Assembly (NCBI GenBank): GCA_964504055.1 | Contig: CAZDCU010000005.1 | Span: forward strand, 7,802-32,000 | Origin: an uncultured Methanomassiliicoccales archaeon | Lineage (GTDB): Archaea; Thermoplasmatota; Thermoplasmata; Methanomassiliicoccales; Methanomethylophilaceae | Length of the DNA: 24,199 bases | Direction: 5' to 3' | Part shown: positions 1,507-14,941 of the stretch, piece after piece | Layout: the number at the start of each line of letters is the position of its first letter | Position numbering within the stretch: position 1 is the stretch's first letter | Made by a program: the position numbers and the translations under genes | The notes under the pieces: model-generated | What the model saw: only the letters and a program-made list of their open reading frames with translations | Database searches by the model: none | What the model was told of the DNA's origin: nothing

Positions 1507-4500
1507 ATGGAAGACTGCAGCGCCGTATACGACGAACTCAGGACACTCAGGGACGCACTCCGCAGGGAACATACCGTCGGCGGAAGGGAACCGAGAATCT
1601 GTTCAGATGAATCATTGTATGATATGGCGGAAAGGCTTCCCGCGAAGAAAGAAGATCTTCTGATGATCAAAGGTATAGGAGATACCTTTGCGGAAAAATA
1701 CGGGGAGAGTTTCCTTCTCATTACCCGTAAATATATCAGAACTGCGGCGAGATCTGTACCGCTTACAGGTGCATCCGAAAATGCTCTGAAGGATCTTCAG
1801 AAGAAGTTAACCGATATAAGCAGAGGAAATCCCCTGCTGTACTGTCCCAGAATGTCAAAGAGCAGAATGTGCGACCTGACTTCTTTCGGTATTTACAATC
1901 CCGCCGATGCAATCGGCGGGGAAGAGAAATTCCTCTGCGACATCACCGATAAAGAAAAATACGAAGGACTGAACCTGATTTACAGGGAAGCACTCCGCGA
2001 TCTGAGAGAAAAGGGAATTACAGACCTCTTTACGGCATATCCCTTCGCCGACGGATATCTTTCCGAAGATTTCCGCATAATGGCTCCGTTGATGCTGTTT
2101 CCCGTAAAACTGAAAAGAAACAATCACGCTTTCAGTCTTTCATACGACGATTCGAGAGACCCTGTCTTCAACAACACTCTCGTACTCGCAGCGATGAGAA
2201 CAAACAGGAAAGAAGGAGCATTGCCTGACTGTGTGATTGACGATATTGAAAATATCTCTGAAAAAATGATGTCTTTCTACCGTGAAAACGGCATAGTTCT
2301 CAAAGACACAGAACATAAAGTCATTAAATTCACAGGACCCGAAAGTAAAGATAAACTCACAGTAAGACACAACCTCGTCCTCGGAAGATTCCCCCTTCAT
2401 TCCAATTCGATTCAGAGAGATTTTGACTCATTGGCAACAAAGGAAAACATCAACAGAATTCTTAACGATTTGATATCAAATCCCGAAAACGAACCCGAAG
2501 ATCTCACTGTGTCAGGTCCCGATGTAAAGGAGAGAGATATCACTTACATCAATCACCTGAACAGCGCTCAGGAGAAGGTAATCGAAGCACTTGTTTCCGA
2601 AGACGGAATCGTCGTTCAGGGACCTCCGGGAACAGGTAAATCTCAGGTAATCACGGGAATAATCACAACTGCGATTAACGAAGGAAAAACCGTTTTAATG
2701 GTCTCGGAGAAGAAAACGGCATTGGATGTAGTCCATTCCCGTCTCGGAAATCTTTCAAAATACACAATGATGATTGATGATGTCTCCGACAAGGATCTTT
2801 TCTACAGTCAGCTGAAGATAATGCTCGATCTCCCTCCCGATATGAGAACATCTCCCGCCGAAATCGATCCTATTTCGGATAAAATCGAAAATCACATCTC
2901 CGAACTCACCCGTATCGCCGACGGAATGTACAGGCCCGATGCATTCGGAATAGAACCGTACAGACTGTATTCTCTCGTAAAGAAAGTGGATCTTAACGAT
3001 CCGAAAGAATATGAAAGGTATATTCTTCTCAAAGACAACATCTCTTCCACTTTACTGAACATCGATTTTTCTCAGTTAAATGAATCTTACACGCATTTCA
3101 CCGAGAAGAAAGCTGTAGACGATCTCAGAACATACTACCAATGCCTCGACGCAAACCCGTGGATGGCATACATCAGAAGAAATCTCACCGATTTTGAGTT
3201 AAGGAGTTTAAAATCGGATTTACGGGGTTTATCCAAGACTTCACGCAGTTACAACTCCATGGACTTCTCCGACAGACTCTTCGGAAAAGGACAGATGATG
3301 AGGACGGCGACAGCCGTCCTCAACAGATACTTCACCAACTACAACGCAAAACATATCGACCAGTTACTGAACGATGCCGAAAACACGTTGGAATCCCTGG
3401 ATATGTATCCGGAATATGCAGAAAAACTGTCTTCATACGAAAAACTCCCCAGAATCCAAAGAATGTACGGAGAAAATATCATCTCCGTAAACACGAAGAT
3501 TCCTTCAAGTTACGAAATGAGCAACGACGAACTCTTCGCATTCATTCTGATGGATCATCTCAGAAGATTCGAAGAGGAAAACGCAGATCTTCTTTCCGAT
3601 ATCGATTCTTTCGAAACTATAAGGAATGAAGTAGACGCAGATATCTCCGACAAAAGAAAAGCAACCGAAGACAGAGTCGGATTCATTCTCAGGGATTCAT
3701 TAAAAGCGGTAACGGAATCGAAAATGATTTCGGAAATGCGCAGAATCGCCGAGAGTAAACGCAGATGGTCGGTAAACAGATTCATCTCGAGATTCGGTTC
3801 GGATTTGTTCAGAGGGATCAGAGTCTGGCTCATGACTCCCGAAGCAGTCTCGGAATTACTTCCGTTGGAGATGGGATTATTCGATTTACTTGTGTTTGAC
3901 GAAGCTTCCCAAATGTACGTAGAGAAAGGAATTCCTTCGATCTACCGTGCGAAGAAAGTCGCCGTCGCGGGAGATCACAAGCAGTTACGTCCTTCAAGTC
4001 TCGGAAGCGGAAGATGGACTTCCGATTCCGACGAAGGCACCGACGAAGACAGCTTATTGGACCTCGCAAGAAAGAGATACGACTCCGTAATGCTCGATTT
4101 CCATTACAGGTCAAAGTACGAAGAACTGATAGCATTCTCAAATTACGCTTTCTACAACGGAAGACTGCACGTATCCCCGAATGTAGACATTCCTTCGGTA
4201 CCTCCGATTGAAACACATCTCGTGAAAAATGCGTTATGGGAGGACAGATGCAACCGTAAGGAAGCGGAAGAAACCGTATCTCTTCTTCAGAATATTCTTA
4301 CAAACCGTGAAAACAACGAAAGCATCGGAATAATCACTTTCAACACGTCCCAGAGGGATTTGATCTACGACATAATCGAAGAAAGATGTCATAAAGACAG
4401 AGAATTCTGCGATATAATCAAAAAAGAATCCGAACGCAGGGAAAACGGAGAAGACACGGGATTGTTCCTGAAAAACATCGAATCCGTTCAGGGAGACGAA

Positions 4501-5148
4501 AGAGACATCATAATCTTCTCAGTCGGTTACGCCAAAAACAGATCGGGAAAGATAGTAAGAACCTTCGGCTGGCTCAATAACCTCGGAGGAGAAAACCGTC
4601 TCAACGTAGCGATAAGCCGCGCAAAGAGAAAAATTCACATTGTGACATCATTCCTCCCCGAAGAATTAGACGTATCGGACAGCAGGAACGAAGGTCCGAG
4701 ATTACTGAAAAAATACCTCGAATACGCATTCGCGGTCAGTTCCCGTAACAGAGACGGAGAAGAAAAAATCCTCAGTTCTCTTTCCGTTAAGGAAGAAGTA
4801 GCATACGATTCCTCATCCGTCTTCAGCGATCAGATCTGTAAATCCCTCAAAGCAAGAGGATACGACGCGGAAACCGACTTCGGTATCGGCGGTTACAGTA
4901 TCGACGTAGTCGTAAAAGACGGAAACAGATACGTTTTGGGAATAGAATGCGACAATTCCCTCTACGCCGGAGCGGCATCCACAAGAGAAAGAGACTACCA
5001 CAGACAGAAATATCTCGAATCGAGAGGATGGAAAATCCGCAGGGTTTGGAGTAACAAGTGGTGGAACAATCCCGAAAAAGAAACCGATGCAATCGTTTCT
5101 CTCTTAAAATCGGAAGGCTGCAATCCTCGGACAATGCGAACAATATAA
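1507..5148 (+). CDS. HRDC / DUF4011-like / Upf1-like SF1 helicase (AAA_11-AAA_12 type) / DUF559-Vsr-like endonuclease fusion protein
   Basis: 1213-aa ORF. aa ~5-75 are HRDC-like (YDELRTLRDALR...IKGIGDTFAEKYGESFL). aa ~95-310 are DUF4011-like (ISRGNPLLYCP..., LGRFPLHSNSIQRDF). Walker A GPPGTGKS is at nt 2620-2643, followed by a ~420-aa insert and then DEASQM (nt 3898-3915), GDHKQLRP, VQGDERDIIIFS and RLNVAISRAKRKIHIV. The C-terminal GYSIDVVVKDGNRYVLGIECD...RDYHRQKYLESRGWKIRRVW (nt ~4891-5050) looks like the Vsr/DUF559 PD-(D/E)xK fold. Confidence 0.85.
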   Translation: MEDCSAVYDELRTLRDALRREHTVGGREPRICSDESLYDMAERLPAKKEDLLMIKGIGDTFAEKYGESFLLITRKYIRTAARSVPLTGASENALKDLQKKLTDISRGNPLLYCPRMSKSRMCDLTSFGIYNPADAIGGEEKFLCDITDKEKYEGLNLIYREALRDLREKGITDLFTAYPFADGYLSEDFRIMAPLMLFPVKLKRNNHAFSLSYDDSRDPVFNNTLVLAAMRTNRKEGALPDCVIDDIENISEKMMSFYRENGIVLKDTEHKVIKFTGPESKDKLTVRHNLVLGRFPLHSNSIQRDFDSLATKENINRILNDLISNPENEPEDLTVSGPDVKERDITYINHLNSAQEKVIEALVSEDGIVVQGPPGTGKSQVITGIITTAINEGKTVLMVSEKKTALDVVHSRLGNLSKYTMMIDDVSDKDLFYSQLKIMLDLPPDMRTSPAEIDPISDKIENHISELTRIADGMYRPDAFGIEPYRLYSLVKKVDLNDPKEYERYILLKDNISSTLLNIDFSQLNESYTHFTEKKAVDDLRTYYQCLDANPWMAYIRRNLTDFELRSLKSDLRGLSKTSRSYNSMDFSDRLFGKGQMMRTATAVLNRYFTNYNAKHIDQLLNDAENTLESLDMYPEYAEKLSSYEKLPRIQRMYGENIISVNTKIPSSYEMSNDELFAFILMDHLRRFEEENADLLSDIDSFETIRNEVDADISDKRKATEDRVGFILRDSLKAVTESKMISEMRRIAESKRRWSVNRFISRFGSDLFRGIRVWLMTPEAVSELLPLEMGLFDLLVFDEASQMYVEKGIPSIYRAKKVAVAGDHKQLRPSSLGSGRWTSDSDEGTDEDSLLDLARKRYDSVMLDFHYRSKYEELIAFSNYAFYNGRLHVSPNVDIPSVPPIETHLVKNALWEDRCNRKEAEETVSLLQNILTNRENNESIGIITFNTSQRDLIYDIIEERCHKDREFCDIIKKESERRENGEDTGLFLKNIESVQGDERDIIIFSVGYAKNRSGKIVRTFGWLNNLGGENRLNVAISRAKRKIHIVTSFLPEELDVSDSRNEGPRLLKKYLEYAFAVSSRNRDGEEKILSSLSVKEEVAYDSSSVFSDQICKSLKARGYDAETDFGIGGYSIDVVVKDGNRYVLGIECDNSLYAGAASTRERDYHRQKYLESRGWKIRRVWSNKWWNNPEKETDAIVSLLKSEGCNPRTMRTI

Positions 5149-5173: not shown

Positions 5174-5644
5174 ATGACACTCAGCATCGGGGATAAAGCA
5201 CCCGACTTCACGGCGGAAAACACCGAAGGAAAAACCTTCAGTCTTTACGAAGAACTCAAAAACGGACCTGTTCTTCTGAACTTCTACGTCGGAGACTTCG
5301 GAATCAACTGCACCAACTATATGTCAAAATTCATCGAGCAGTTCGACCGCATTAAAGAGACAGGAGTAAGATTCGTCGCAATAAACAACGACAGCATGGA
5401 CAGTCATAAGATGTTCAAAGACCGTCTCGGAGCACCGTACGAATTTCTTTTCGACAAAGACAAAGAAACGGCAAAGAAATACGGCGCAATTGTCGGCCCG
5501 GGACACCTCGTAACGGGATTCACAAACAGAGAATTCTATCTCATCGACAGAGACGGTACGATTAAATTCATCTGGAGATCGCCGGAACCCAAAGTACTGC
5601 CGACAGTCGATGTGATAGTCGACGGAATCAAAGCATCGCTTTGA
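5174..5644 (+). CDS. thioredoxin-fold AhpC/TSA (peroxiredoxin/Bcp-like) protein
   Basis: 156-aa ORF with GDKAPDFTAENTEGKTFSLYE...VLLNFYVGDFGINCTNY, the peroxiredoxin-type N-terminal layout with one candidate peroxidatic Cys. The PxxxT part of the motif is divergent. It starts 25 nt after the helicase-nuclease gene. Confidence 0.7.
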   Translation: MTLSIGDKAPDFTAENTEGKTFSLYEELKNGPVLLNFYVGDFGINCTNYMSKFIEQFDRIKETGVRFVAINNDSMDSHKMFKDRLGAPYEFLFDKDKETAKKYGAIVGPGHLVTGFTNREFYLIDRDGTIKFIWRSPEPKVLPTVDVIVDGIKASL

Positions 5645-6316
5645 TTACTTATCCTGAAGAATGACTTCCGTCACTTCCAAAGTGCCGGAGTCTTTCTTCA
5701 TTTTTTTCTCCGATTTTTCAATCACAAGCTTCTTCTTAAACAGAGGAGAATCCAAAGTCATCGACTCGTACTCTCCGCCTTCGCCCATGATACTCACACC
5801 GTGCTTATCCCTGAGTTTCAGAAGATCTTTTTTCGCCTCGTTATCAAGATGTCTTCCCAGCCATTTTTCATCCAAGCCTTCGGCGAAAACACCCACAATC
5901 ACTGCATCGATACCTGCGGAAACCATTTCGTCATAGACCATCGACTGATCCTTTCTCCACAGAGGTGCCAGCATAATTAAATCCAACTCTCCGAGAACCC
6001 TGTTCATACGGTCCCACTGATAATCCGACCATAACGCACCGACAACAACACCGTCGATGTCCAATCCCGAAAGAACATCTCTCAGAGCATCCAAATCTCC
6101 CTCTTCCGTACCGTCGGATACTGCGGTAATCAGAGGAATATCCATAGCCTCCGCCATTTTCGGAACGATACCCAAATTAGGCGTATGGAAAATCCATGAC
6201 GCACTGTCCGAGGGAACGATGTTCACAAGAAACCTTACCTCATGACCCATCTGATGTACCAGATATGCAGCGAACGAAGAATCCTTCCCGCCGGAATACA
6301 ATGCAGCCAACTTCAT
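5645..6316 (-). CDS. diphthine-ammonia ligase-like N-type ATP pyrophosphatase (MJ0570/Dph6 family)
   Basis: 223-aa ORF starting MKLAALYSGGKDSS (SGGKDS PP-loop), with the overall MJ0570-family layout. Its stop codon directly abuts the stop of the convergent 5174-5644 gene. Confidence 0.75.
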   Translation of the reverse strand: MKLAALYSGGKDSSFAAYLVHQMGHEVRFLVNIVPSDSASWIFHTPNLGIVPKMAEAMDIPLITAVSDGTEEGDLDALRDVLSGLDIDGVVVGALWSDYQWDRMNRVLGELDLIMLAPLWRKDQSMVYDEMVSAGIDAVIVGVFAEGLDEKWLGRHLDNEAKKDLLKLRDKHGVSIMGEGGEYESMTLDSPLFKKKLVIEKSEKKMKKDSGTLEVTEVILQDK

Positions 6317-6381
6317 TGAGAACGGATAACGCTCATCAGCAATAAATAGACGGAGGACATAGAGCGCCGTAAGGCGACAAC

Positions 6382-7065
6382 ATGGCTGAAGCGAACCTCA
6401 AGAAGATAGTTGCGGAGAAGGCAGTGGACGATTATGTCAAAGACGGAATGTACGTCGGTCTCGGAACCGGCTCCACCGCTTACTATGCAATACTGAGGGT
6501 CGCGGAGAAAGTGAAGGAAGGATACAGTCTCACATGCGTCGCAACATCCGTACAGAGTGAGAACCTCGCCAAAGAAAACGGCGTAAAAGTCGTTCCCCTG
6601 AGCGAAGTGGATCATCTCGATGTCACAATCGACGGTGCCGACGAAGTCGATAACGACATGCAGCTCATCAAGGGATTGGGCGGAGCTCTTCTCAGAGAAA
6701 AAATAGTTGCTTCATCGTCAGTCAGGGAAGTAATCATCGTCGACTCTTCCAAGAGAGTCGAAGTCCTCGGTGTGAAGACACATCTTCCCGTCGAAGTACT
6801 GAAATTCGGTCATGAGAAAACGAAAATCATGCTCGAGAGACAGGGATGCAAAGCAACTCTCAGGATGAAAGACAACGAACCTTTCGTCACCGACGGAGGA
6901 AACTACATCTACGACTGCAAATTCGACGCAATCGCAAATCCCTTCTTCCTCGAATCGAGGATCGACGTAATCCCCGGAGTCGTCGAGAACGGTTTATTCC
7001 TGAACACAGCCACAACCGTGTTAATCGCATCGGGAGACGGAAGCATAGAGAAGATGGGCGAATGA
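6382..7065 (+). CDS. rpiA: ribose-5-phosphate isomerase A
   Basis: 227-aa ORF with GLGTGSTA, DGADEVD and KGLGGALLREKIVA motifs. Confidence 0.9.
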   Translation: MAEANLKKIVAEKAVDDYVKDGMYVGLGTGSTAYYAILRVAEKVKEGYSLTCVATSVQSENLAKENGVKVVPLSEVDHLDVTIDGADEVDNDMQLIKGLGGALLREKIVASSSVREVIIVDSSKRVEVLGVKTHLPVEVLKFGHEKTKIMLERQGCKATLRMKDNEPFVTDGGNYIYDCKFDAIANPFFLESRIDVIPGVVENGLFLNTATTVLIASGDGSIEKMGE

Positions 7066-7120
7066 ACGCCGTTCTTTCTCTATAAATAATATAGAAAGAG
7101 ATTGTGCACCACCCAATCTA

Positions 7121-7130
7121 TTTTTATATA
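7121..7130 (+). promoter_or_regulatory. candidate archaeal TATA box for the L44e-S27e-eIF2alpha-Nop10-PAC2 cluster
   Basis: TTTTTATATA lies 46 nt upstream of ATG 7176. GGTGA (7166-7170) is a plausible SD 5 nt before the ATG. Confidence 0.4.
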
Positions 7131-7175
7131 ACCTCGATATTAGCAACCTTCCACGCATAATCAAGGGTGAATCAC

Positions 7176-7454
7176 ATGAAAATGCCCAGAACGATCAAAA
7201 CATACTGCCCCTTCTGTGAGACGCACACCGTCCACGATGTAGAAAGGGTCAAAAAGAAGAAAGCAAGCGAACTCAAATGGGGTCAGAGGAGATTCAGAAA
7301 GGTCACCGCCGGTTACGGAGGTTTCCCGAGGCCTAAGCCCGAAGGAAGGGAAAAGCCGACCAAGAGGGTCAACATCAGATACAGATGCACCCAGTGCAAG
7401 AAAGCACACCTCACAGCCTGCATAAGAGCAAAGAAGTTCGAGCTTACGGAGTGA
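7176..7454 (+). CDS. rpl44e: 50S ribosomal protein L44e (eL42)
   Basis: [20 protein letters not shown]...[10 protein letters not shown] zinc-ribbon r-protein. The track ORF begins at GTG 7167. ATG 7176, preceded by GGTGA, is the more likely start. Confidence 0.9.
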
Positions 7455-7459
7455 TCCCC

Positions 7460-7627
7460 ATGGTTAACGAATTCGTCAAAATCAAATGTGCCGACTGCGG
7501 CAACGAACAGGTTACATTCAGCAAAGCAGCGACCACAGTCACATGCAACGTCTGCGGTGCCACCCTCGTCAAACCCAAGGGCGGAAAAGCCGACCTCAAA
7601 GGCGAAGTGGTCGAGGTATACAACTGA
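7460..7627 (+). CDS. rps27e: 30S ribosomal protein S27e (eS27)
   Basis: The internal ATG of track ORF 7385-7627 gives MVNEFVKIKCADCGNEQVTFSKAATTVTCNVCGATLVKPKGGKA (C4 zinc ribbon). It starts 5 nt after the L44e stop. Confidence 0.9.
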   Translation: MVNEFVKIKCADCGNEQVTFSKAATTVTCNVCGATLVKPKGGKADLKGEVVEVYN

Positions 7628-8412
7628 TGTCCCGCTCCAGAGAATTTCCCGAGAACGGAGAGCTCGTAGTCTGCTCCGTCGTCAACGTGAAGAACTTCGG
7701 TGCCTTCGTCACATTGGATGAATACGAAGGAAAAGAAGGATTCATTCACGTCAGGGATATTGCCTCTGGTTGGGTGAAGTACATCAGAGACTTCATCAGA
7801 GAAGGACAGAAAGTTGTCTGCAAGGTTCTGGGCGTAGATTCACAAAAAGGTCACATCGACCTTTCTTTAAAATCCGTCAACGACCATCAGAAGAGAGAGA
7901 AAGTCCAGCAGTGGAAGAATGAGAAGAAAGCCGAAAAGCTTGTCGAAATCATCGCCGAGAGACTTTCAATTTCAGTTGACGATGCCTTCGATGAGTTCGG
8001 AAACGAACTCACCGAGGCTTATGATACATTATACGGTGCATTCGAAGCCGTAGCCGCCAACCCCGACGAACTCCGCGAGGAGTATACCGGAGATTGGGTG
8101 GAAACGTTCATCGAAGTCGCCAAAGAAAACGTCACACTCCCGTATGTGGAGATCGATGCGATTCTTGAGATGAAAACACTCGCACCCGAAGGAGTCGAAG
8201 ACATCAAAGCCGCTCTCAAAGCGGGACTCGACGAAGCGGGAGACGATGCGGAAGTTTCGATTACATCCGTCGGTTCTCCGAAATACAGAGTGGTTATCAC
8301 CGCCGATGAGTACAAAACGGCAGAGGATGTTCTCAAGAGAATCTCCAACGCTGCGATTAAGTCACTCACCAAAGCAGGCGGAGAAGCGACACTTAAACGT
8401 GAGAGCAGGTGA
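7627..8412 (+). CDS. eif2a: translation initiation factor 2 subunit alpha (aIF2-alpha)
   Basis: The ATG overlaps the S27e stop (TGATG). The S1 domain reads GELVVCSVVNVKNFGAFVTLDEYEGKEGFIHVRDIASGWV. The upstream extension of track ORF 7486-8412 is an out-of-context read-through. Confidence 0.9.
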   Translation: MSRSREFPENGELVVCSVVNVKNFGAFVTLDEYEGKEGFIHVRDIASGWVKYIRDFIREGQKVVCKVLGVDSQKGHIDLSLKSVNDHQKREKVQQWKNEKKAEKLVEIIAERLSISVDDAFDEFGNELTEAYDTLYGAFEAVAANPDELREEYTGDWVETFIEVAKENVTLPYVEIDAILEMKTLAPEGVEDIKAALKAGLDEAGDDAEVSITSVGSPKYRVVITADEYKTAEDVLKRISNAAIKSLTKAGGEATLKRESR

Positions 8413-8612
8413 CGGCCGTGAAATCATCCCTGAGAAGGTGTCCGAAATGCGGACGCTATTCGTTAAAGGGATTGTGTCCTGTGTGTTCCTGCGAAACAGT
8501 GAACGCACATCCGCCGAGATACTCTCCCGACGACCGTTACGGCAGATACAGGAGAGAATCGATTATTCAGGAGTATGGGGAAAATGGGAAACTGCACGAC
8601 AATAATTTATGA
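8409..8612 (+). CDS. nop10: H/ACA RNP protein Nop10
   Basis: CPKCGRYSL...CPVCS...HPPRYSPDDRYGRYRR. The GTG start overlaps the eIF2alpha stop (GTGA). GTG 8418 is an alternative start. Confidence 0.85.
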   Translation: MTAVKSSLRRCPKCGRYSLKGLCPVCSCETVNAHPPRYSPDDRYGRYRRESIIQEYGENGKLHDNNL

Positions 8613-9339
8613 TGAAATTCCCGAGTTTAAGAAACCGATTCTTATCGAAGGTTTACCGGGTGTCGGTAACGTAGGTAAGATTGCTGCGGATTTCATCGCG
8701 GAAAAACTGAATGCAGTGAGATTCGCTACCGTATACTCAGACAGTTTCCCTCCGCAGGTCACGTTGGATAACGAGTGCGTTATCGACATGGCATGCAACG
8801 AACTCTACTATGCGAAAGCGGGAGATAAGGACATCATTCTTCTTCTGGGAGAATATCAGGGAACGACTCCCGAAGGACAGTATCTGATCTGTGAGGATTT
8901 AATGAAAGAAGTCTTCATAAGATTCGATGTTTCGAGGATTATCACACTCGGGGGATACGGTACAGGTAAAATGGCCGACTCGCCGAGAGTTTTGGGCGCA
9001 GTGTCAGATGCCGAATTAAAAGAAGATCTGGAGAAACACGGCGTTGTATTCTCTCCGGGAGAACCCGCGGGAGGAATTGTGGGTGCATCCGCACTTCTTG
9101 TGGGTTTCGGTAAGATTTACGGTATTCCTTCACAGTGTCTTATGGGCGAAACATCGGGATATTTCGTCGATTACAAGAGCGGAATTGCATTGCTGAATGT
9201 CCTTGAATCGATACTCGGTATCGAGTTGGACAAATCCGAACTGAACGACAAATGTCAGCAGATCGACGAGCTTACTGCAAAAGTCAAAGAGATGGAAGCA
9301 GGCCAGCAGAAACACGCAGACCTGGGCTACATCGGATGA
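8575..9339 (+). CDS. PAC2-family proteasome assembly chaperone-like protein (COG1938 type)
   Basis: 254-aa ORF with PILIEGLPGVGNVGKIAADFI near the N-terminus, in the usual position after nop10 in archaeal clusters. Start 8575 or 8584; either overlaps the nop10 3' end. Confidence 0.75.
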   Translation: MGKMGNCTTIIYDEIPEFKKPILIEGLPGVGNVGKIAADFIAEKLNAVRFATVYSDSFPPQVTLDNECVIDMACNELYYAKAGDKDIILLLGEYQGTTPEGQYLICEDLMKEVFIRFDVSRIITLGGYGTGKMADSPRVLGAVSDAELKEDLEKHGVVFSPGEPAGGIVGASALLVGFGKIYGIPSQCLMGETSGYFVDYKSGIALLNVLESILGIELDKSELNDKCQQIDELTAKVKEMEAGQQKHADLGYIG

Positions 9340-9410: not shown

Positions 9411-9521
9411 CCTCACTTAGCTTAGCCTGGCTAGAGCGGCTGACTGTAGAGAGTTCCCGGCAATGCCGGTACAGCCGCTGAAATCAGCAGATCCCCTGTT
9501 CAAATCAGGGAGTGGGGACCA
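9411..9521 (+). tRNA. tRNA-Tyr (anticodon GTA) with a ~33-nt intron and encoded CCA
   Basis: Hand-folded cloverleaf. Acceptor CCTCACT/AGTGGGG (C1-G72), D arm GCTT-AGCCTGGCTA-GAGC, anticodon stem GCTGA (9439-9443)/TCAGC (9484-9488), GTA at 9446-9448, variable AGATC, T arm CCCTG-TTCAAAT-CAGGG, A73, CCA 9519-9521. Forty nt separate the anticodon-stem strands, so an intron of about 9450-9482 (canonical 37/38 position) must be removed. The intron contains the hairpin CCGGC-AAT-GCCGG. Confidence 0.85.
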
Positions 9522-9613
9522 ATTATTATCACTGTTTCGGATGAGCGTGAGCTTTGTCGATAAATGCTACAAAATCCTGAATTTATTTATACGGCGCAAC
9601 GTGGTCTTCAATT

Positions 9614-9763
9614 ATGTCTAGATGTCCGTTCCCACGTGCATGTGATTGTCCGTTTGACGAAGGCTGTGCACATTGTCCATTAGATGGCCCATACTATGCC
9701 AGTAGGCCCGAAGATGTTCTCGGAGACTACGATCTCAGCGCATACAATGAAGATGAAATTTGA
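9614..9763 (+). CDS. hypothetical 49-aa Cys-rich, acidic-tailed peptide (below ORF-track cutoff)
   Basis: Own translation: MSRCPFPRACDCPFDEGCAHCPLDGPYYASRPEDVLGDYDLSAYNEDEI. ATTTATTTATA (9581-9591) ends 22 nt before the ATG, consistent with a leaderless archaeal mRNA. There is no homology evidence. Confidence 0.3.
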   Translation: MSRCPFPRACDCPFDEGCAHCPLDGPYYASRPEDVLGDYDLSAYNEDEI

Positions 9764-9841
9764 CTTTGCGTGCAACAGAGATTAAAATTGATACGTAACA
9801 CACCCCTATGGATTCCATTAGGAGCCTGTCAGTTTCCGCAT

Positions 9842-10255
9842 TCACGCCCTTAAACTTTTGAGAGACACGATATCTACGCCGATCATGCGTTTGAGTATGA
9901 CTTCACCGAGGAGGTTGAAGTTTTCCTCAGTCTCTTCCTTCTCCATCCAATCCATTGTGTATTCGCAAGCAAGTGTTGGACCAGCATTACCGAGATCTTC
10001 TCTAATCAGCCCGTCACAGTATTCACTGAAGGATTCATAGTATGCTTTCATACTGAATTCTCTCTGATGCTCCATTGCATATCTGCATGAGAATTTACAG
10101 AGGTCATCGTGATAGAAAACTGCGAAAAAACGGAGGAGATTATCCTCATCCATGTCCTCTATCGGTTGGAACGCTTTATTCAAAGCATAAATTTTCATTT
10201 TCAACTTTTCCAACTGATATTCACTCAAATCTTCCAACTTCATGTCCATTGACAC
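9842..10255 (-). CDS. hypothetical acidic 137-aa protein
   Basis: A clean ORF with no competing frame, Glu/Asp-rich (MSMDMKLEDLSEYQLEKLK...WMEKEETEENF), with no recognisable motif. Confidence 0.5.
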   Translation of the reverse strand: MSMDMKLEDLSEYQLEKLKMKIYALNKAFQPIEDMDEDNLLRFFAVFYHDDLCKFSCRYAMEHQREFSMKAYYESFSEYCDGLIREDLGNAGPTLACEYTMDWMEKEETEENFNLLGEVILKRMIGVDIVSLKSLRA

Positions 10256-10383
10256 CTTGTTGAATCTATGTTCGCAAGTCCTACATTAATTATCCCGGTG
10301 AAAGAGATATTGTCGACAAAATTTCAGCCATAATTGATTGACCTCACATACTCCTTAAGTGAATCAAAAACATCTCCACTTTC

Positions 10384-10467
10384 ATTTTAAATCTCATTTA
10401 AACATAATTTTCAAATTCGTTTAAATTTCATTTTAATATTTTAAATCTCAAATTAAATTTTAATATT
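10384..10467. repeat. AT-rich short direct repeats in a divergent intergenic spacer
   Basis: ATTTTAAATCTCA occurs exactly at 10384-10396 and 10438-10450. ATTTTAATATT occurs exactly at 10430-10440 and 10457-10467. There are also several TTTAAA cores. Confidence 0.6.
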
Positions 10468-10474
10468 CAGTTGA

Positions 10475-11494
10475 ATGTGTATTGTCGTGGAGAATATGAC
10501 TATGAAGTGCACTACGCCGGAAACAATCAGATTGCAGAGAGATACTGCCAACACTTCAACCGATCAGTTGATTGTGGAAAAAAGCGGAATGCAGAACATA
10601 AACATCGATACACTAAACAAATACAGAGATCTCTTCCGCTCCAATACACCCAATCACCCGTGGCTTAATGAATCGGATGAAGAATTACTCAAATTCCTCG
10701 GAGCCGCAGAAATCGAAAACGGAGAATTCAGATTGACAGTCGCGGGACTGTTAATGTTCGGTAACAGCTACGAAATAACGCACATTATTCCTAACTATCA
10801 CCTAGATTACAGAAGATATGAATGTAAAGATGAATGGACTGATAGATTGAATTCGGATACTGGCCTTTGGTCCGGAAACATCTTCGACTTCTTCATAGAC
10901 GTGTCCCGCAGAATAATAGATTCCGATGATCGCCCGTTTACACTTAATAATGATGTGATTAAAGCACAGAGAGAAATGATCCTCAACAGCTTAGTGCATG
11001 CTGATTATTTCAGAGGAGGAAACATTGTCGTCATATCTGAAAAAGACAGCCTGACCGTTCGTAATTCTGGTAACTTATGTATTTCTCCTGAGAAGTCCAT
11101 CGAAGGCGGATTCAGCAATCCACGCAACCCTGTACTGATGAAAATGTTTACTCTTGTGGGTTTTGCGAAACGTTCAGGCGACGGAATACGGAGCATATTC
11201 CGCACATGCAGAATGATGGGGCTCCCGCTTCCCGAAATAATCGAAGAATACAATCCGACTTGCGTCGTATTCAGAATGGGGTTGAAAGGTTCCGATGAAA
11301 TGGAACCGAGGATAATCCAATTGATGATTCAGAATGAAAAAATCGGCATAGATACAATAGCTGATTTTTTGGGTGTTTCTAAGAGTACAATTTCAAGAGA
11401 AATCACCAAAATGAAAAATGAAGGAAAAATCTCCAGAATAGGCGGATCTAAAGGTCGTTGGGTTGTTAATGAGCTAGAAAACGACGGTAATTGA
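10475..11494 (+). CDS. COG2865-type putative regulator: HATPase_c_4-like ATP-binding domain plus C-terminal wHTH, lacking the usual N-terminal AlbA_2 domain
   Basis: 339-aa ORF with LNESDEELLKFLGA...FRLTVAGLLMFGN, REMILNSLVHADY, GFSNPRNPVLMKMFTLVGFAKRSGDGIRSI and a C-terminal IADFLGVSKSTISREITKMKNEGKI. This matches the middle and C-terminal parts of AlbA_2/HATPase_c_4 proteins as I remember them. Confidence 0.65.
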   Translation: MCIVVENMTMKCTTPETIRLQRDTANTSTDQLIVEKSGMQNINIDTLNKYRDLFRSNTPNHPWLNESDEELLKFLGAAEIENGEFRLTVAGLLMFGNSYEITHIIPNYHLDYRRYECKDEWTDRLNSDTGLWSGNIFDFFIDVSRRIIDSDDRPFTLNNDVIKAQREMILNSLVHADYFRGGNIVVISEKDSLTVRNSGNLCISPEKSIEGGFSNPRNPVLMKMFTLVGFAKRSGDGIRSIFRTCRMMGLPLPEIIEEYNPTCVVFRMGLKGSDEMEPRIIQLMIQNEKIGIDTIADFLGVSKSTISREITKMKNEGKISRIGGSKGRWVVNELENDGN

Positions 11495-11500
11495 TGCCTT

Positions 11501-11567
11501 AATCGATTGCGATTGGAATGCTAATCGATTAGAATCGATTATAATTGATTAACATTCAAAATCGATT
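11501..11567. repeat. cluster of the 8-bp palindrome AATCGATT
   Basis: Perfect copies lie at 11501-11508, 11523-11530, 11533-11540 and 11560-11567. A degenerate AATTGATT lies at 11543-11550. The cluster sits in the 3' spacer between convergent genes. Confidence 0.8.
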
Positions 11568-11640
11568 TTCCTTTCAAGCGAAAATCAGTGCCTCACATTC
11601 AAAGACTTCTCAATTGCATCCCTACGTCTGCATATCGCAA

Positions 11641-12024
11641 TCAGAGCCTTGATTCAGCCTTCGACAGGAACTTCTCATTATCGACGATGAATCTCTCATG
11701 CTTTCCGGAACCGATTTCTCCAGCGGAATCTTTAACAATAACAGAAAAAACCAATCTTCTTCTGTCAATCTCAATCAACTCGGTCTCGCAGGTAACCTCG
11801 ATGCCGATCGGAGACGGGGCGGAGTGTGCTATGTCGAGATGCGTTCCGACTGTGCTCTTTCCCTCTTCGAGGAAAGGTGCAACACTCTGACTTGCCGTAG
11901 CTTCAATCAACGCAATCATCGCAGGCGTCGCATAAACGGGAAGCGTTCCGCTTCCGACTGCTTCGGCAGTGTTCTCTTTCACAACTTTTTCCGTCTTGGT
12001 TCCCTTAATCCCGACGTTCAACAT
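11641..12024 (-). CDS. hotdog-fold thioesterase (FlK/COG5496-like)
   Basis: 127-aa ORF with GSGTLPVYATPAMIALIEATA...GTHLDIAHSAPSPIG...RRRLVF, the layout of the small predicted-thioesterase family. Confidence 0.65.
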   Translation of the reverse strand: MLNVGIKGTKTEKVVKENTAEAVGSGTLPVYATPAMIALIEATASQSVAPFLEEGKSTVGTHLDIAHSAPSPIGIEVTCETELIEIDRRRLVFSVIVKDSAGEIGSGKHERFIVDNEKFLSKAESRL

Positions 12025-12070
12025 AATTTACACATACGAAATCGGGATTATAATGATAATTGACGAAAAA

Positions 12071-14824
12071 TCAACTAGAACCGTCACTTGATAACAAGTA
12101 ACCGTACAACTCTTCAGGAACTGATTTTCTCAATTTCAAAGGTATTCCAACAACTGTTTTTCCATCTAACGTTGTCTCTTCACAACGTTCAACAATTGGT
12201 TTTGCCTGCCCCATATAGTAGAAATCAATCCCTTCACTGTCACTTTTCTTAATGAATACAGGAATTATCAATCCATTCGACGATGATGCTAAGATTTCCC
12301 TTACATCTGCACTTGTCATATCGCGACCAGATTTAGACATCCAATCAAACACATCGCGATTTTCGAATCCTTCGACATATTTTGTAGTCGAACTAATATC
12401 ATCACCTTTGTGATATGTGACGAATATTGGGCAAGTGTTATCTCTCAACATATACCCATACATGGTGGAACTGCAATCCTTATCCCAATTCAAAATCCTG
12501 CAGACATCCTTACGTGAATATTTCTGATACAGTGTAAACCCGAGATCGTCCTTTTCTGCATAACGTGATGATGCTATTTCTTCACCACAATCTATTGCGT
12601 CTACTATCAGTCCCTTCATCTCCGGAACAGACAACATACTATCGAGAATCTTGCTTCTGCGAATGACGTTTCCATCCTTCACAATGAGAGCCCACGAAGG
12701 ATGCTGGCTCATTGTACTATTGGTATGATATTTACCGTCCAATACATTGATTGCCGACATCAAAGAATCTGTGTCGGGATCGTCGATAGAATCGATTGTT
12801 ACCTCAGACGAATCAACCATAGAACGAAGTACTTTCAGCTCTTGGATGCGCTTCCCATTCACAAAACTCGATATGAATGTCAAAGCATCGTCCTGTGCAT
12901 CAGACATTAAGAGATGTTCTTCTTTAGCCTTCATTCTAAAAGCGTTGAGATTATCCATTTTACTAACTAACACAGTAGGATCCAATGATCCTCCGTGGAG
13001 AAGATCACACAATGAAGGAGGGCGTCCAAGCCTCGATTTCATCAAAAGATACTCATTCTTCAGCATCTTCAACGTAGAAAGCTTGCTGCGATCTATGTTA
13101 GATAAAATCCTGTCTTCAACAATACGCTCAAAACCGACAGTAGAACAACCGGGAAGGAATCTACTCATCATGAATCTGCGCAGATTATCCTTATCGCAGG
13201 ATCTATCTCCTGAAAGGGCTGTCGGAATCATGAAATTGTTCTCATAATTTCCTATGAAATCCAAAACAATCAATGATTTATCAGGATCTTTTGTCCTACG
13301 CAATCCACGCCCAAGCTGTTGTATGAAGATTATTGCAGACTGTGTCGGACGTAGCATCAGAATCTGATTCACCAAAGGAATATCGACACCTTCGTTGAAG
13401 ACGTCACGTGTGAAGATGTAATCCAGGGAATTGTCATCATCTGATTGAAGGCATTGCATTGCTTTCTTTCTGTCTTCGATTGAATCTTTCGCACTTAACG
13501 CGACAGTCCTGTATCCGTACTCATTCATCATCTTCGAAAGTGCTTCACATTCCTCTATTGTACTGCAGAAAATCAATCCTCTGGCTCTGTCTCCGTACGG
13601 CCTGTAATACTCAGCTTTCTCAATGATATTCTTAATGCGTTCTTTACAGGTAAGCGCATTGAAAGTGGAATTGTCATCAATTAACTTTCCATCAACAGAT
13701 ATCTCTGATACTCCGTAGTAATGGAACGGACAGAGAATTCCCATCTCTAATGCCTTGTTAAGGCGAATTTCATATGCGACATTATAATCAAACATCTTGA
13801 AAACGTCTGCATCATCTGTCCTTTCAGGTGTTGCAGTCATTCCCAACATGAAACGTGGTCTGAAATACGAAATAATTTCAGAGTACATCGAAGCGGTGGA
13901 GTGATGTGCTTCGTCACACACGATATAATCGAAATGCTCTCTTGAGAATTTTTCTTTGTAATTTCTCATAGTCTGTATCGTTGCAAACAGACCATCGGAA
14001 TCCTCTTCCTTCCTGTTTCCTGTATAGAAACCAAGAGAATACTTGTCGCCCAAAACCTTGAAGTAGCTTTCTTTCGCATCCTTCAAGATATTTTCATTGT
14101 GAACCAAGAACAAGAAACGTTTCGGTGCAAATTCTTTCACATCAAACGCGGAAAGATATGTCTTACCTGTACCGGTCGCAGAAATCAAAATTGCACGTTG
14201 TTTCCCTTCTTCACGTAAATTACGCAACGAATCCAATGCTTCCATTTGCATCTGATTCGGCCTAGGAGCAGCATTCAACTGAACTACGGTCTGTTCCTTT
14301 GGAGGAATTATACGATGCACACGATAATTCTGTATCCATTCCTTCGTCAAAGGTACGGATAACTCCCACATTCTCTCAAATTCTGATTGAATCCTCTCTC
14401 TAAGAGGATCAACAACCGACGATAACTTAAGATTCCATTCCAAGTTCGTACACAATGCCTTATCAGTAAGATTGGAACTTCCAATGAACGCAGTCAAGGA
14501 ATCTTTCTCATAGAACATGTATCCCTTGGTGTGGAACATCTCTTCACATACTCTCACTTCGTGATCTGTATGTTCTAGCAACCAATCCAACGCATTCGGA
14601 TCGTTGAATCCTAAGTAATCTGTAGTGAGAATACGACCTTTGACACCACGTTCGTGAATGTCTCTGAAGGCCTGATATAATGTGCTCAGACCCCCCATAG
14701 TTATGAACGCGACTGAGAAATCGAATCTATCGCATGAACCCATATGCCTTATGAGCGAAGTATGTACTTTGACCCCTTTTGCATCGTCATTGTACAGAAG
14801 AATCGGTTCAGCATCGCCACTCAT
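12071..14824 (-). CDS. HKD (PLD-family) nuclease / SF2 DEAH helicase (ResIII + Helicase_C type) fusion with a long uncharacterised C-terminal region (DUF3427-type architecture)
   Basis: 917-aa ORF. A single HKD motif FHTKGYMF...FIGSSNLT (H98/K100, nt ~14533-14525). Walker A ISATGTGKT (nt ~14179-14159), VCDEAHH (nt ~13915-13904), MTATPER and QQLGRGLRR. About 350 aa follow the helicase core with no motif I can name. Confidence 0.85.
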   Translation of the reverse strand: MSGDAEPILLYNDDAKGVKVHTSLIRHMGSCDRFDFSVAFITMGGLSTLYQAFRDIHERGVKGRILTTDYLGFNDPNALDWLLEHTDHEVRVCEEMFHTKGYMFYEKDSLTAFIGSSNLTDKALCTNLEWNLKLSSVVDPLRERIQSEFERMWELSVPLTKEWIQNYRVHRIIPPKEQTVVQLNAAPRPNQMQMEALDSLRNLREEGKQRAILISATGTGKTYLSAFDVKEFAPKRFLFLVHNENILKDAKESYFKVLGDKYSLGFYTGNRKEEDSDGLFATIQTMRNYKEKFSREHFDYIVCDEAHHSTASMYSEIISYFRPRFMLGMTATPERTDDADVFKMFDYNVAYEIRLNKALEMGILCPFHYYGVSEISVDGKLIDDNSTFNALTCKERIKNIIEKAEYYRPYGDRARGLIFCSTIEECEALSKMMNEYGYRTVALSAKDSIEDRKKAMQCLQSDDDNSLDYIFTRDVFNEGVDIPLVNQILMLRPTQSAIIFIQQLGRGLRRTKDPDKSLIVLDFIGNYENNFMIPTALSGDRSCDKDNLRRFMMSRFLPGCSTVGFERIVEDRILSNIDRSKLSTLKMLKNEYLLMKSRLGRPPSLCDLLHGGSLDPTVLVSKMDNLNAFRMKAKEEHLLMSDAQDDALTFISSFVNGKRIQELKVLRSMVDSSEVTIDSIDDPDTDSLMSAINVLDGKYHTNSTMSQHPSWALIVKDGNVIRRSKILDSMLSVPEMKGLIVDAIDCGEEIASSRYAEKDDLGFTLYQKYSRKDVCRILNWDKDCSSTMYGYMLRDNTCPIFVTYHKGDDISSTTKYVEGFENRDVFDWMSKSGRDMTSADVREILASSSNGLIIPVFIKKSDSEGIDFYYMGQAKPIVERCEETTLDGKTVVGIPLKLRKSVPEELYGYLLSSDGSS

Positions 14825-14941
14825 GCAATCAGATCGATCTGGCTGTATTTCCGGTTTGCGATCCGTCAGGCGTTCTGCGGAATAACAATTGTTAATTATT
14901 AGACAATAATGTAAAATATTAAGGAATTAAATCAAGGTCAA

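What the first reader, a model, noticed from the sequence alone, without database searches (positions are those of the whole stretch)
1507..5148. HRDC-capped DUF4011 / Upf1-like helicase / Vsr-like endonuclease fusion (Hhe-like) in an archaeon
The order DUF4011-like region, AAA_11/AAA_12-type SF1 helicase with a ~420-aa insert between Walker A and DEASQ, then a DUF559/Vsr-fold nuclease (IDVVV...GIECD...RGWKIRRVW) matches my recollection of the single-gene Hhe system (helicase plus Vsr endonuclease) reported by Gao et al. 2020 in bacteria. Two things are unusual here. A clear HRDC domain, a nucleic-acid-binding module of RecQ/RNase D, sits at the extreme N-terminus. The gene also has host-like composition and is wedged between housekeeping-type genes rather than in an obvious island. 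Together with 12071-14824, the window carries two unrelated helicase-nuclease giants with opposite domain order.
Basis: partly seen in the sequence, partly recalled or inferred. Interest (0 to 1): 0.65.

Follow-up and report, generated by a model that had tools for sequence, protein, structure and literature searches.

The report
Conserved HRDC helicase-nuclease in gut methanogens
This 1213-residue gene really does fuse an HRDC domain, an Upf1-like helicase and a Vsr-type nuclease and is a distant relative of the anti-phage protein Hhe, but in gut methanogens it is inherited like a near-core chromosomal gene, not like a mobile defence cassette.

Summary
ORF 1507-5148 (+) encodes HRDC, a DUF4011 N-domain, an Upf1-like SF1B helicase with a ~330-aa helical insert, and an MTES_1575 (Vsr-fold) nuclease. 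All catalytic motifs are invariant in 45 orthologues.

The Hhe interpretation holds only at superfamily level:
- Hhe scores 379 bits against a cut-off of 2000. ProA scores 542 against 1500.
- The C-terminal DUF3320 is absent, and the protein is about 600 aa shorter than those profiles.

The HRDC cap is neither rare nor archaeal. About 50 clusters at 50% identity carry it, including Clostridia, Treponema and Mollicutes.

The archaeal copies form one clade (NJ bootstrap 100/100). Midpoint rooting places it among bacterial sequences, but its sister group is unresolved. They sit at one locus (FlK | HEL | ... Dph6-RpiA-aIF2α) in 51 of 56 informative loci found through the neighbouring gene Dph6. 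They co-diverge with their neighbours (r = 0.86), and their dN/dS (0.05-0.13) equals that of the housekeeping neighbours. No close relative was found on plasmids or viral contigs.

Best reading: an active helicase-nuclease, probably acquired once from bacteria and then fixed. It most likely works in DNA maintenance or surveillance. A fixed immune role is not excluded.

The parts
1507..5148 (+). Complete gene, 1213 aa: HRDC, DUF4011 N-domain, SF1B helicase, Vsr-fold nuclease
   Evidence: ORF list and translation. Aligns end to end with more than 100 orthologues of about 1240 aa at 47-95% identity.
1522..1719 (+). HRDC domain (residues 6-71)
   Evidence: Pfam HRDC, E = 1.8e-11. Matches the RecQ HRDC structure 1wud, E = 8.7e-6. 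Also matches the C-terminus of DpdF in PADLOC.
1759..2541 (+). DUF4011-type N-domain (residues 85-345; Pfam hit 121-226)
   Evidence: Pfam DUF4011, E = 5.4e-10. AlphaFold2 model of residues 81-350 has pLDDT about 90 in its core. No PDB fold match better than E = 0.33. Invariant residues include R160, E161, R164, R167, D173, Y178-P-F, P199-V200, D214 and R217-D218.
2542..2826 (+). First part of helicase domain 1A (residues 346-440): LNSAQ motif and Walker A GPPGTGKS (residues 372-379, nt 2620-2643)
   Evidence: Pfam AAA_11 and AAA_30. Motif residues are invariant in 45 orthologues. IGHMBP2, Sen1 and Upf1 match this stretch.
2827..3816 (+). All-helical insert of about 330 aa between motif Ia and motif II (residues 441-770). 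It occupies the position of the Upf1-family 1C 'prong' (inferred).
   Evidence: The AlphaFold2 model is all-helical here, with pLDDT about 80. My HMM of this insert matches the HRDC-bearing relatives in full and the others only in part or not at all.
3817..4686 (+). Rest of helicase domain 1A plus domain 2A (residues 771-1060): DEASQ (798-802, nt 3898-3912), GDHKQLRP, QGDERD, RLNVAISRA
   Evidence: Pfam AAA_12, E = 6.3e-21. Motifs invariant. Foldseek matches to Aquarius, SETX/Sen1, UPF1, IGHMBP2, DNA2 and ZNFX1, E from 5e-14 to 1e-7.
4822..5100 (+). Vsr-fold endonuclease domain MTES_1575/DUF559 (residues 1106-1198), with D1133, E1147, D1149, R1160, R1162, D1163 and H1165
   Evidence: Pfam MTES_1575, E = 2.4e-28. 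These residues are invariant in 45 orthologues. MTES_1575 was defined as a Vsr-fold REase (PMC3710099).
1204..1470 (-). Context: divergent small zinc-ribbon ORF (88 aa), conserved next to or near the helicase gene in the closest relatives
   Evidence: Weak Zn-ribbon Pfam hits. tblastn finds it at 91% identity in L090/L091 and 58-61% in L005/L093.
5174..9339 (.). Context: conserved housekeeping block AhpC(+), Dph6(-), RpiA(+), L44e/S27e, aIF2-alpha(+), Nop10, PAC2(+)
   Evidence: Pfam. The same block flanks the helicase gene in all archaeal loci with enough flank.

Best explanation
The gene encodes an enzymatically intact, single-chain helicase-nuclease. It belongs to a distinct HRDC-capped, DUF3320-less branch (about 1240 aa) of the large DUF4011 / SF1B-helicase / MTES_1575-nuclease superfamily. 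That superfamily also contains the anti-phage proteins Hhe and ProA.

Shown:
- The architecture.
- Invariant ATPase, helicase and nuclease catalytic residues.
- An Upf1-like fold.
- One archaeal clade, which midpoint rooting places among bacterial sequences.
- A fixed chromosomal position in Methanomethylophilaceae-type Methanomassiliicoccales.
- Co-divergence with the flanking genes, and the same purifying selection as those genes.
- Occasional clean loss.

Inferred mechanism:
- The HRDC and the DUF4011 N-domain dock the enzyme on single-stranded or branched DNA.
- The SF1B motor translocates 5'->3' using ATP. The long helical insert acts as the family's 1C-type regulatory or strand-separating element.
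- The C-terminal Vsr-fold endonuclease cuts the DNA that the motor engages.

Inferred role: because the gene behaves as a near-core, vertically inherited gene, I judge that it constitutively processes aberrant DNA (genome maintenance or surveillance). I do not think it is a horizontally shuffled anti-virus cassette. It probably entered the methanogen lineage once from bacteria.
For: Architecture and motifs. Fold: Upf1-like SF1B helicases only.

A distinct branch:
- My region HMMs find HRDC in 50 of the best 150 clusters at 50% identity. These 50 are about 1180-1290 aa long and match my HMM of the insert over its full length.
- No DUF3320.

Vertical inheritance:
- The synteny FlK | HEL | (0-8 kb) | Dph6-RpiA-aIF2α-PAC2 holds in all archaeal loci with enough flank, at 43-100% helicase identity.
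- Sampling anchored on Dph6 rather than on the helicase finds the gene in 51 of 56 informative loci, or 47 of 52 distinct lineages.
- Helicase distances track those of the neighbours: r = 0.86, Mantel 0 of 2000 permutations, relative rate 1.28.
- dN/dS is 0.046-0.128, against 0.038-0.18 for Dph6, RpiA and AhpC.
- GC3 is host-like.

Origin:
- The archaeal clade has NJ bootstrap 100/100. Midpoint rooting places it among sequences from Clostridia, Treponema and Mollicutes.

Not obviously mobile:
- Plasmid matches are all below 35% identity and none covers the HRDC.
- Only three distant matches in viral contigs, none covering the HRDC.
- In Clostridia the gene sits next to the dcw cluster in at least 12 loci, and in Treponema directly after murD.

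Precedent: a large DUF4011 gene is a core gene in every P. aeruginosa isolate (PMC10250203).
Against: - The only characterised relatives are anti-phage proteins. Hhe loses its activity when the nuclease is mutated (bioRxiv 10.1101/2022.06.16.496414).
- The best-scoring models are defence models: PDC-S37, ProA and Hhe.
- HRDC also occurs in the defence helicase DpdF.
- The gene is dispensable. It is cleanly absent, with no remnants, from L092, L094, L107, L108, L111 and L113.
- In one Oscillospiraceae chromosome the homologue lies beside an E1-E2-JAB fusion gene and a weak phage-portal-like ORF.
- No operon partner or repair-gene neighbour points to a specific pathway.
- Substrate (DNA or RNA), polarity and cleavage specificity are all inferred.
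- The tree is NJ only, and the bacterial sister group is unresolved (40/100).
Confidence: 0.55

Rival explanations
1. It is a genuine Hhe/ProA-type innate immune protein that has become fixed in the chromosome. The helicase scans or is loaded on invading viral or plasmid DNA, and the Vsr-fold nuclease degrades that DNA (or host DNA, in abortive infection).
For: - Strongest matches are to defence models: PDC-S37 8.9e-159, Hhe 5.7e-82, ProA 3.4e-162.
- Hhe defence depends on its nuclease.
- The gene has been lost in some lineages.
- An E1-E2-JAB fusion gene lies next to the homologue in L029.
- HRDC occurs in DpdF.
- A variable slot holding a type IV restriction gene lies about 4.4 kb downstream in the window.
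Against: - Scores are 3-5 fold below the curated equivalog cut-offs and are no higher than the generic superfamily level.
- Present in about 90% of lineages at one locus, across divergence down to 39-43% identity.
- dN/dS and co-divergence cannot be told apart from those of the housekeeping neighbours.
- No close relatives on plasmids or viral contigs.
- The stretch between the gene and Dph6 holds a metal-transporting ATPase, not defence genes.
Confidence: 0.3
2. It acts on RNA or RNA:DNA hybrids, like Sen1/SETX, Upf1 or Aquarius. The HRDC would work as it does in RNase D and Rrp6, for example in R-loop removal or transcript surveillance.
For: - The best fold matches are RNA helicases: Aquarius, SETX/Sen1, UPF1 and IGHMBP2.
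- HRDC occurs in RNase D and Rrp6 (my own knowledge).
- In archaea the gene lies near the exosome and translation gene clusters.
Against: - The C-terminal domain is a Vsr/DUF559-type DNA endonuclease fold.
- The gene forms no operon with the RNA-processing genes. Its neighbours are divergent or convergent.
- The same fold family includes the DNA enzyme Dna2.
- The bacterial orthologues sit in quite different contexts, next to the dcw cluster.
Confidence: 0.1
3. It is an inactive relic or a decaying gene left over from an old transfer.
For: The gene has been lost in some lineages.
Against: - The reading frame is full-length and every helicase and nuclease catalytic residue is invariant in 45 orthologues.
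- dN/dS is 0.05-0.13.
Confidence: 0.02

Closest known systems
Hhe (Gao et al. 2020; NCBIfam NF042953, PADLOC PDLC02194)
   Same: A single polypeptide with a DUF4011-type N-domain, an AAA_11/AAA_12 SF1 helicase with a large insert, and an MTES_1575/Vsr-fold nuclease. Nuclease catalytic residues are conserved, and Hhe defence needs its nuclease glutamate.
   Different: - 379 bits against the cut-off of 2000.
- 1213 aa against a profile of about 1800-1900 positions.
- No C-terminal DUF3320.
- An N-terminal HRDC has been added.
- Inherited vertically at a fixed locus rather than in islands.
ProA (NCBIfam NF058533) and PADLOC candidate PDC-S37 (PDLC05009)
   Same: These are the best-scoring named models: ProA 542 bits, PDC-S37 529 bits. 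The best-scoring aligned stretch in each is the C-terminal helicase and nuclease part; a second matched stretch is reported but not located.
   Different: - Far below the ProA cut-off of 1500.
- In both profiles the best-scoring stretch ends about 200 positions before the profile's C-terminal end, and our protein ends there.
- I could not find the source literature for either, and PADLOC labels PDC-S37 a candidate.
- Relatives without HRDC score the same or higher on ProA.
Core DUF4011 protein of Pseudomonas aeruginosa (PA14_RS11765) flanking defence hotspot cDHS1
   Same: A large DUF4011 protein that is a conserved chromosomal core gene, present in every isolate, and not an island gene (PMC10250203).
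   Different: Its sequence was not compared here. It is bacterial, and I do not know whether it has an HRDC or a DUF3320.
Upf1-like SF1B helicases (IGHMBP2, Sen1/SETX, Upf1, Aquarius, ZNFX1, Dna2)
   Same: Same motor fold and motif set: LNxSQ, GPPGTGKS/T, DEAxQ, GDxxQLxP, QGxExD, RLNVAxSRA. Dna2 likewise combines an SF1B helicase with a nuclease in one chain.
   Different: - 10-14% identity in the structural alignments.
- These are eukaryotic proteins, and most work on RNA.
- In Dna2 the nuclease is a RecB-type domain at the N-terminal side.
- None has the DUF4011 N-domain, the 330-aa helical insert or a Vsr-fold nuclease.
RecQ / RNase D HRDC domain
   Same: The N-terminal 70 residues match Pfam HRDC and the RecQ HRDC structures 1wud and 2rhf.
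   Different: In RecQ the HRDC is C-terminal to an SF2 helicase. Here it is N-terminal to an SF1B helicase.

Membership tests
Hhe (single-gene anti-phage system) | Whole-protein score at or above the curated equivalog cut-off (NCBIfam NF042953, 2000 bits) | tested here: not met
   378.6 bits. The best stretch covers only residues 735-1201, aligned to profile positions 1227-1681 of 1797.
Hhe (single-gene anti-phage system) | DUF4011 N-domain, AAA_11/AAA_12 SF1 helicase and Vsr-like (MTES_1575) nuclease, in that order | tested here: met
   Pfam hits in that order, all above their gathering scores.
Hhe (single-gene anti-phage system) | C-terminal extension after the nuclease (DUF3320 / wHTH) and an overall length of about 1800-1900 aa | tested here: not met
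   No DUF3320 hit at E <= 0.1. The protein ends 15 aa after the nuclease and is 1213 aa long. That Hhe itself carries DUF3320 is my recollection. It is supported indirectly: the profile extends about 120-130 positions past the matched nuclease, and plasmid relatives are annotated as DUF3320 proteins.
Hhe (single-gene anti-phage system) | Protects against phage, and the protection depends on the nuclease | not testable with these tools
   Needs challenge assays. Only residue conservation (D1133, E1147, D1149) could be shown.
Hhe (single-gene anti-phage system) | Accessory-gene behaviour: patchy distribution, and location in islands or on mobile elements | tested here: not met
   - Present in 51 of 56 informative syntenic loci.
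- Co-diverges with its neighbours, r = 0.86.
- No close relative on plasmids or viral contigs.
ProA (NCBIfam NF058533) | Whole-protein score at or above the cut-off of 1500 bits | tested here: not met
   542 bits. The best stretch is residues 684-1201, aligned to profile positions 1201-1704 of 1903.
PADLOC PDC-S37 (defence candidate) | Match to the PDLC05009 profile under PADLOC's own score and coverage rules | tested here: inconclusive
   E = 8.9e-159, 529 bits, two stretches. The best is residues 747-1202, aligned to profile positions 893-1340 of 1550. PADLOC's thresholds and system rules are not available here.
Upf1-like SF1B helicases | Complete motif set (Q/LNxSQ, I, Ia, II DEAxQ, III GDxxQLxP, IV, V, VI) and the 1A/2A RecA fold | tested here: met
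   Motifs are present and invariant. Sequence and fold matches are to IGHMBP2, Sen1, Upf1, Aquarius and Dna2.
Upf1-like SF1B helicases | 5'->3' translocation on a single strand | not testable with these tools
   Inferred from family membership only.
Vsr/DUF559-type PD-(D/E)xK endonucleases (MTES_1575) | Domain match with the catalytic Asp ... Glu-x-Asp and the downstream Arg/Asp/His residues conserved | tested here: met
   MTES_1575, E = 2.4e-28, 98.5 bits against a cut-off of 38.2. D1133, E1147, D1149, R1160, R1162, D1163 and H1165 are invariant.
Housekeeping (lineage-core) gene | Present in essentially all members of the lineage at a conserved locus, with purifying selection like that of its neighbours | tested here: inconclusive
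   Largely met: 51 of 56 informative loci, r = 0.86, and dN/dS 0.05-0.13, the same as the neighbours. However, at least two sublineages lack the gene with no remnants. A census of complete genomes could not be run.

The most novel reading that the evidence does not exclude
A helicase-nuclease of the Hhe/ProA immune superfamily crossed from gut Bacillota into the ancestor of the Methanomethylophilaceae. There it was domesticated into a constitutive genome-maintenance factor, a Dna2-like end- or flap-processing enzyme built from defence parts. The HRDC cap and the loss of DUF3320 would mark the switch from defence to housekeeping. This would be an inter-domain example of an immune protein taken over for a core function.
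Probability: 0.2. Interest if true: 0.6.

Novelty: new variant of a known kind. Interest (0 to 1): 0.38.

Why it matters
Automated defence annotation would probably label this gene Hhe-like or PDC-S37. Here, however, it behaves as a near-core gene of the methylotrophic gut methanogens, and of several gut bacterial clades. That has three consequences:

- A hit to a defence model at superfamily level is not evidence of an immune function.
- It defines an uncharacterised HRDC-capped branch of about 50 clusters at 50% identity. I found no paper in the searchable library that pairs HRDC with DUF4011, and there is no solved structure of a close relative.
- It offers a tractable question: do DUF4011 helicase-nucleases have a housekeeping DNA-processing role? 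If so, that role could also explain the core DUF4011 gene of Pseudomonas aeruginosa.

Tried and rejected
I re-ran it with residues 1-1200.
- Literature searches for PDC-S37 and ProA, and for papers holding at least two of HRDC, DUF4011, DUF559 and DUF3320, found nothing usable. The provenance of ProA and PDC-S37 stays unknown to me.
- A fold search of the DUF4011 N-domain against the PDB gave no significant match (best E = 0.33), so its fold and function remain unassigned. I looked for a PD-(D/E)xK signature in it by eye and found none.
- No tRNA genes are in the window. The sigma-70 promoter and terminator scan gave no more sites than the shuffled controls, and it is not designed for archaea.
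- I suspected that the stretch between the gene and Dph6 was a defence hotspot and rejected the idea. It is 0 bp, about 0.5 kb (AhpC) or 2.4-3.8 kb long, and in the locus where genes were annotated (L001) it holds a P-type metal ATPase with HxlR regulators and a nitroreductase.
- Some 'HEL' hits in the metagenome scan were artefacts. My ORF extension in L057 read through into AhpC. I reclassified these loci as lacking the helicase gene.
- Two aIF2-alpha dN/dS values were extraction artefacts and were ignored.
- The bacterial sister group of the archaeal clade could not be resolved (40/100 bootstrap). The direction of transfer is inferred from breadth of distribution and midpoint rooting only.

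Full report
**1. Observation**

The window holds one uninterrupted ORF at 1507..5148 on the + strand, 1213 aa. Pfam finds the following domains in order:
- HRDC, residues 6-71, E = 1.8e-11.
- DUF4011, residues 121-226, E = 5.4e-10.
- AAA_11, residues 350-417 plus a second stretch.
- AAA_12, residues 849-1047, E = 6.3e-21.
- MTES_1575, residues 1106-1198, E = 2.4e-28, with a weak DUF559 hit over the same stretch.

Walker A (GPPGTGKS, 372-379) and DEASQ (798-802) are 420 residues apart.

The neighbours are a peroxiredoxin, diphthine-ammonia ligase (Dph6), RpiA, aIF2-alpha and PAC2. Named homologues place the window in the Methanomassiliicoccales. The nearest named relative is Candidatus Methanarcanum hacksteinii, with 75% identity for the helicase and 81% for Dph6.

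**2. Is the enzyme intact?**

In an alignment of 45 archaeal orthologues at 48-95% identity, all Upf1-like helicase motifs are invariant: LNSAQ, GPPGTGKS, DEASQ, GDHxQLRP, QGDERD and RLNVAISRA. So are the nuclease residues D1133, E1147, D1149, R1160, R1162, D1163 and H1165.

An AlphaFold2 model of residues 1-1200 has mean pLDDT 74. It shows four parts:
- An HRDC helical bundle.
- A beta-rich N-domain.
- The two RecA-like helicase domains, split by an all-helical insert of about 330 aa (residues 430-770).
- A compact alpha/beta nuclease.

Foldseek and sequence searches against the PDB return only Upf1-like SF1B helicases (Aquarius, SETX/Sen1, UPF1, IGHMBP2, DNA2, ZNFX1) and the RecQ HRDC. The DUF4011 N-domain was modelled on its own with core pLDDT of about 90. 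It has no significant PDB match (best E = 0.33).

**3. Relation to Hhe**

PADLOC ranks the candidate PDC-S37 first (E = 8.9e-159), then Hhe (5.7e-82). NCBIfam ranks ProA first (542 bits, cut-off 1500), then Hhe (379 bits, cut-off 2000).

For all four models the best-scoring aligned stretch covers only the C-terminal helicase and nuclease part. The profiles run 120-210 positions beyond the point where our protein ends, and no DUF3320 is detected.

The nearest relatives that lack an HRDC score 520-670 bits on ProA and 370-476 on Hhe. Scores of this size are therefore the background level of a very large superfamily, with 7,500 clusters at 50% identity at E < 1e-30. The protein is a relative of Hhe and ProA, not a member of either family.

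**4. The HRDC-capped branch**

I built HMMs for each region of the protein and ran them on the best 150 cluster representatives. Fifty of them have the N-terminal HRDC. Those fifty are 1180-1290 aa long and match my HMM of the insert over its full length. The others lack the HRDC, are often longer, and match the insert HMM only in part or not at all.

A scan of one genome per GTDB species found at least 575 relatives. Full-length matches that include the HRDC occur in:
- Methanomassiliicoccales, 43-60% identity.
- Oscillospiraceae (including a complete 3.25-Mb chromosome) and other Clostridia, 42-45%.
- Treponema, 39-44%.
- Anaeroplasma, Acholeplasma oculi ATCC 27350 and Izemoplasmatales, 35-42%.

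The HRDC cap is therefore neither rare nor specific to archaea. NCBI already names such proteins 'HRDC domain-containing protein'. I found no open paper that pairs HRDC with DUF4011.

**5. Inheritance in the archaeal lineage**

Every archaeal locus with enough flank shows the same arrangement: FlK(-) | HEL(+) | 0-8 kb | Dph6(-) RpiA(+) L44e S27e aIF2-alpha Nop10 PAC2. This holds at helicase identities from 43% upward.

To avoid sampling only genomes that have the gene, I anchored searches on Dph6 instead:
- Five look-ups gave three loci from two lineages with the gene and two without.
- A metagenome scan gave 80 loci. Among the informative ones, 51 carry the gene and 5 do not, which is 47 against 5 distinct lineages.
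- The two look-up loci that lack the gene (L092, L094) have no remnant at tblastn E <= 1e-3. Four of the five metagenome loci without it (L107, L108, L111, L113) have the AhpC-type arrangement, like L092 and L094, with no helicase hit at E <= 1e-5.
- The fifth (L126) diverges from a conspecific contig just past Dph6, so the gene may simply lie beyond the fetched flank.

Other measures agree with vertical descent:
- Pairwise helicase distances track the mean of Dph6, RpiA and aIF2-alpha (r = 0.86, Mantel 0 of 2000). These three genes track each other equally well (0.83-0.88). The helicase evolves 1.28 times as fast.
- In eight close pairs, dN/dS for the helicase is 0.046-0.128. This is the same range as Dph6, RpiA and AhpC.
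- GC3 is 0.50, within the host range. The type IV restriction gene at 12071-14824 has 0.41.
- The stretch between the helicase gene and Dph6 is not a defence hotspot.

**6. Origin**

In an NJ tree of 72 full-length sequences, the syntenic archaeal sequences form one clade with 100/100 bootstrap support. Midpoint rooting places this clade among bacterial sequences. The exact bacterial sister group is unresolved.

Wide bacterial diversity set against a single archaeal order suggests one transfer from bacteria, probably gut Bacillota, into the ancestor of this methanogen group. That direction is an inference.

**7. Mobility and bacterial context**

tblastn against 72,556 plasmids gives only matches below 35% identity. 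None covers the HRDC, and they are annotated as DUF3320 or DUF4011 proteins. IMG/VR gives three distant matches, none covering the HRDC.

In one Clostridia clade the gene lies divergent to mraZ-mraW-PBP-murE-murF-mraY in at least 12 loci. In Treponema it directly follows murD. One Oscillospiraceae locus instead has an E1-E2-JAB fusion gene and a weak phage-portal-like ORF beside it.

**8. Interpretation**

Shown: an intact SF1B helicase fused to a Vsr-fold nuclease, in a distinct HRDC-capped and DUF3320-less branch, inherited vertically as a near-core but dispensable gene.

Inferred: the HRDC and N-domain recognise single-stranded or branched DNA. The motor translocates 5'->3'. The nuclease cuts the engaged DNA.

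| Reading | Confidence |
|---|---|
| Constitutive DNA maintenance or surveillance | about 0.55 |
| Chromosomally fixed Hhe-like immunity | about 0.3 |
| Role on RNA or R-loops | about 0.1 |
| Inactive relic | about 0.02 |

The second is the main rival: it is supported by the known function of the only characterised relatives and by the sporadic losses. The inactive-relic reading is excluded by conservation.

A core DUF4011 gene in every Pseudomonas aeruginosa isolate (PMC10250203) is a precedent for non-island members of this superfamily.

**9. Verdict**

The finding is real. The Hhe label is right only at superfamily level. The features described as unusual (the HRDC cap, the archaeal host) are common to a sizeable branch found in both domains.

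What is noteworthy is the housekeeping-like inheritance of a protein that resembles a defence protein. Novelty: a new variant of a known kind. Interest: moderate.

Noticed in passing
window 9500-15000: A low-GC stretch (GC 0.39-0.41, GC3 0.41-0.44) lies after PAC2. It carries an unassigned ORF (9842-10255, -), a HATPase_c_4 + HTH gene (10475-11494, +) and a 917-aa type IV methyl-directed restriction-enzyme-like gene (12071-14824, -; PADLOC mREase_IV E = 6e-214). The slot after PAC2 differs between relatives: resolvase + AAA_22 + SLFN_AlbA_2 in L090, DUF4143 ATPases in L091 and L093, VapE in L005, LRR/Flg_new in L094. It looks like an integration or defence hotspot.
   Followed up: partly
window 11641-12024 (-): The FlK-type thioesterase lies directly upstream of the helicase gene in most relatives. 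Here it sits 6.5 kb downstream, inside the low-GC stretch next to the restriction gene, yet its composition is host-like (GC3 0.53). This points to a local rearrangement.
   Followed up: no
L034, L042-L052, L059 (Clostridia); L067, L075, L088 (Treponema): Bacterial orthologues lie next to the cell-division and cell-wall (dcw/mur) cluster in two phyla. In Clostridia the gene is divergent to mraZ-mraW-PBP-murE-murF-mraY. In Treponema it comes directly after murD. UvrC lies 3 kb downstream in L045.
   Followed up: partly
L011, L070, L016, L019, L021, L078, L079, L055: Several contigs with archaeal synteny or near-identity to the window sit in MAGs labelled Anaerovoracaceae, Lachnospiraceae, Bifidobacteriaceae, Ruminococcus CAG:579 or Bacteroides salyersiae, so they are probably mis-binned. 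Conversely, L055, in a Methanomethylophilaceae bin, carries a bacterial-type copy of the gene.
   Followed up: no
L029:13925-16168 (-): A 747-aa fusion of ThiF (E1), Prok-E2_A and Prok-JAB domains lies directly downstream of the Oscillospiraceae orthologue. A weak phage-portal-like ORF lies upstream. This is a conflict-system type of neighbourhood, unlike the other loci.
   Followed up: no
L057:9977-14089: My ORF extension found no stop codon between the helicase gene and the downstream AhpC gene, giving 1370 aa. This could be a real helicase-peroxiredoxin fusion or an assembly error.
   Followed up: no
L126 and L124: These two contigs are 98.6% identical over 11 kb but diverge completely 365 bp past Dph6. 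This indicates within-species variation on the helicase side of Dph6. The gene is absent, or more than 10 kb away, in L126.
   Followed up: partly
proteins P0085 and P0112: These are 1823-1836-aa versions whose N-terminus carries a TctA transporter domain (PF01970). They are probably gene-calling fusions with the upstream gene rather than real architectures.
   Followed up: no
window 7486-8412 (+): The listed aIF2-alpha ORF is 308 aa, but the orthologues are 260 aa. The true start is probably downstream, which leaves room for the L44e and S27e genes seen in relatives (ORFs at 7167-7454 and 7385-7627).
   Followed up: no
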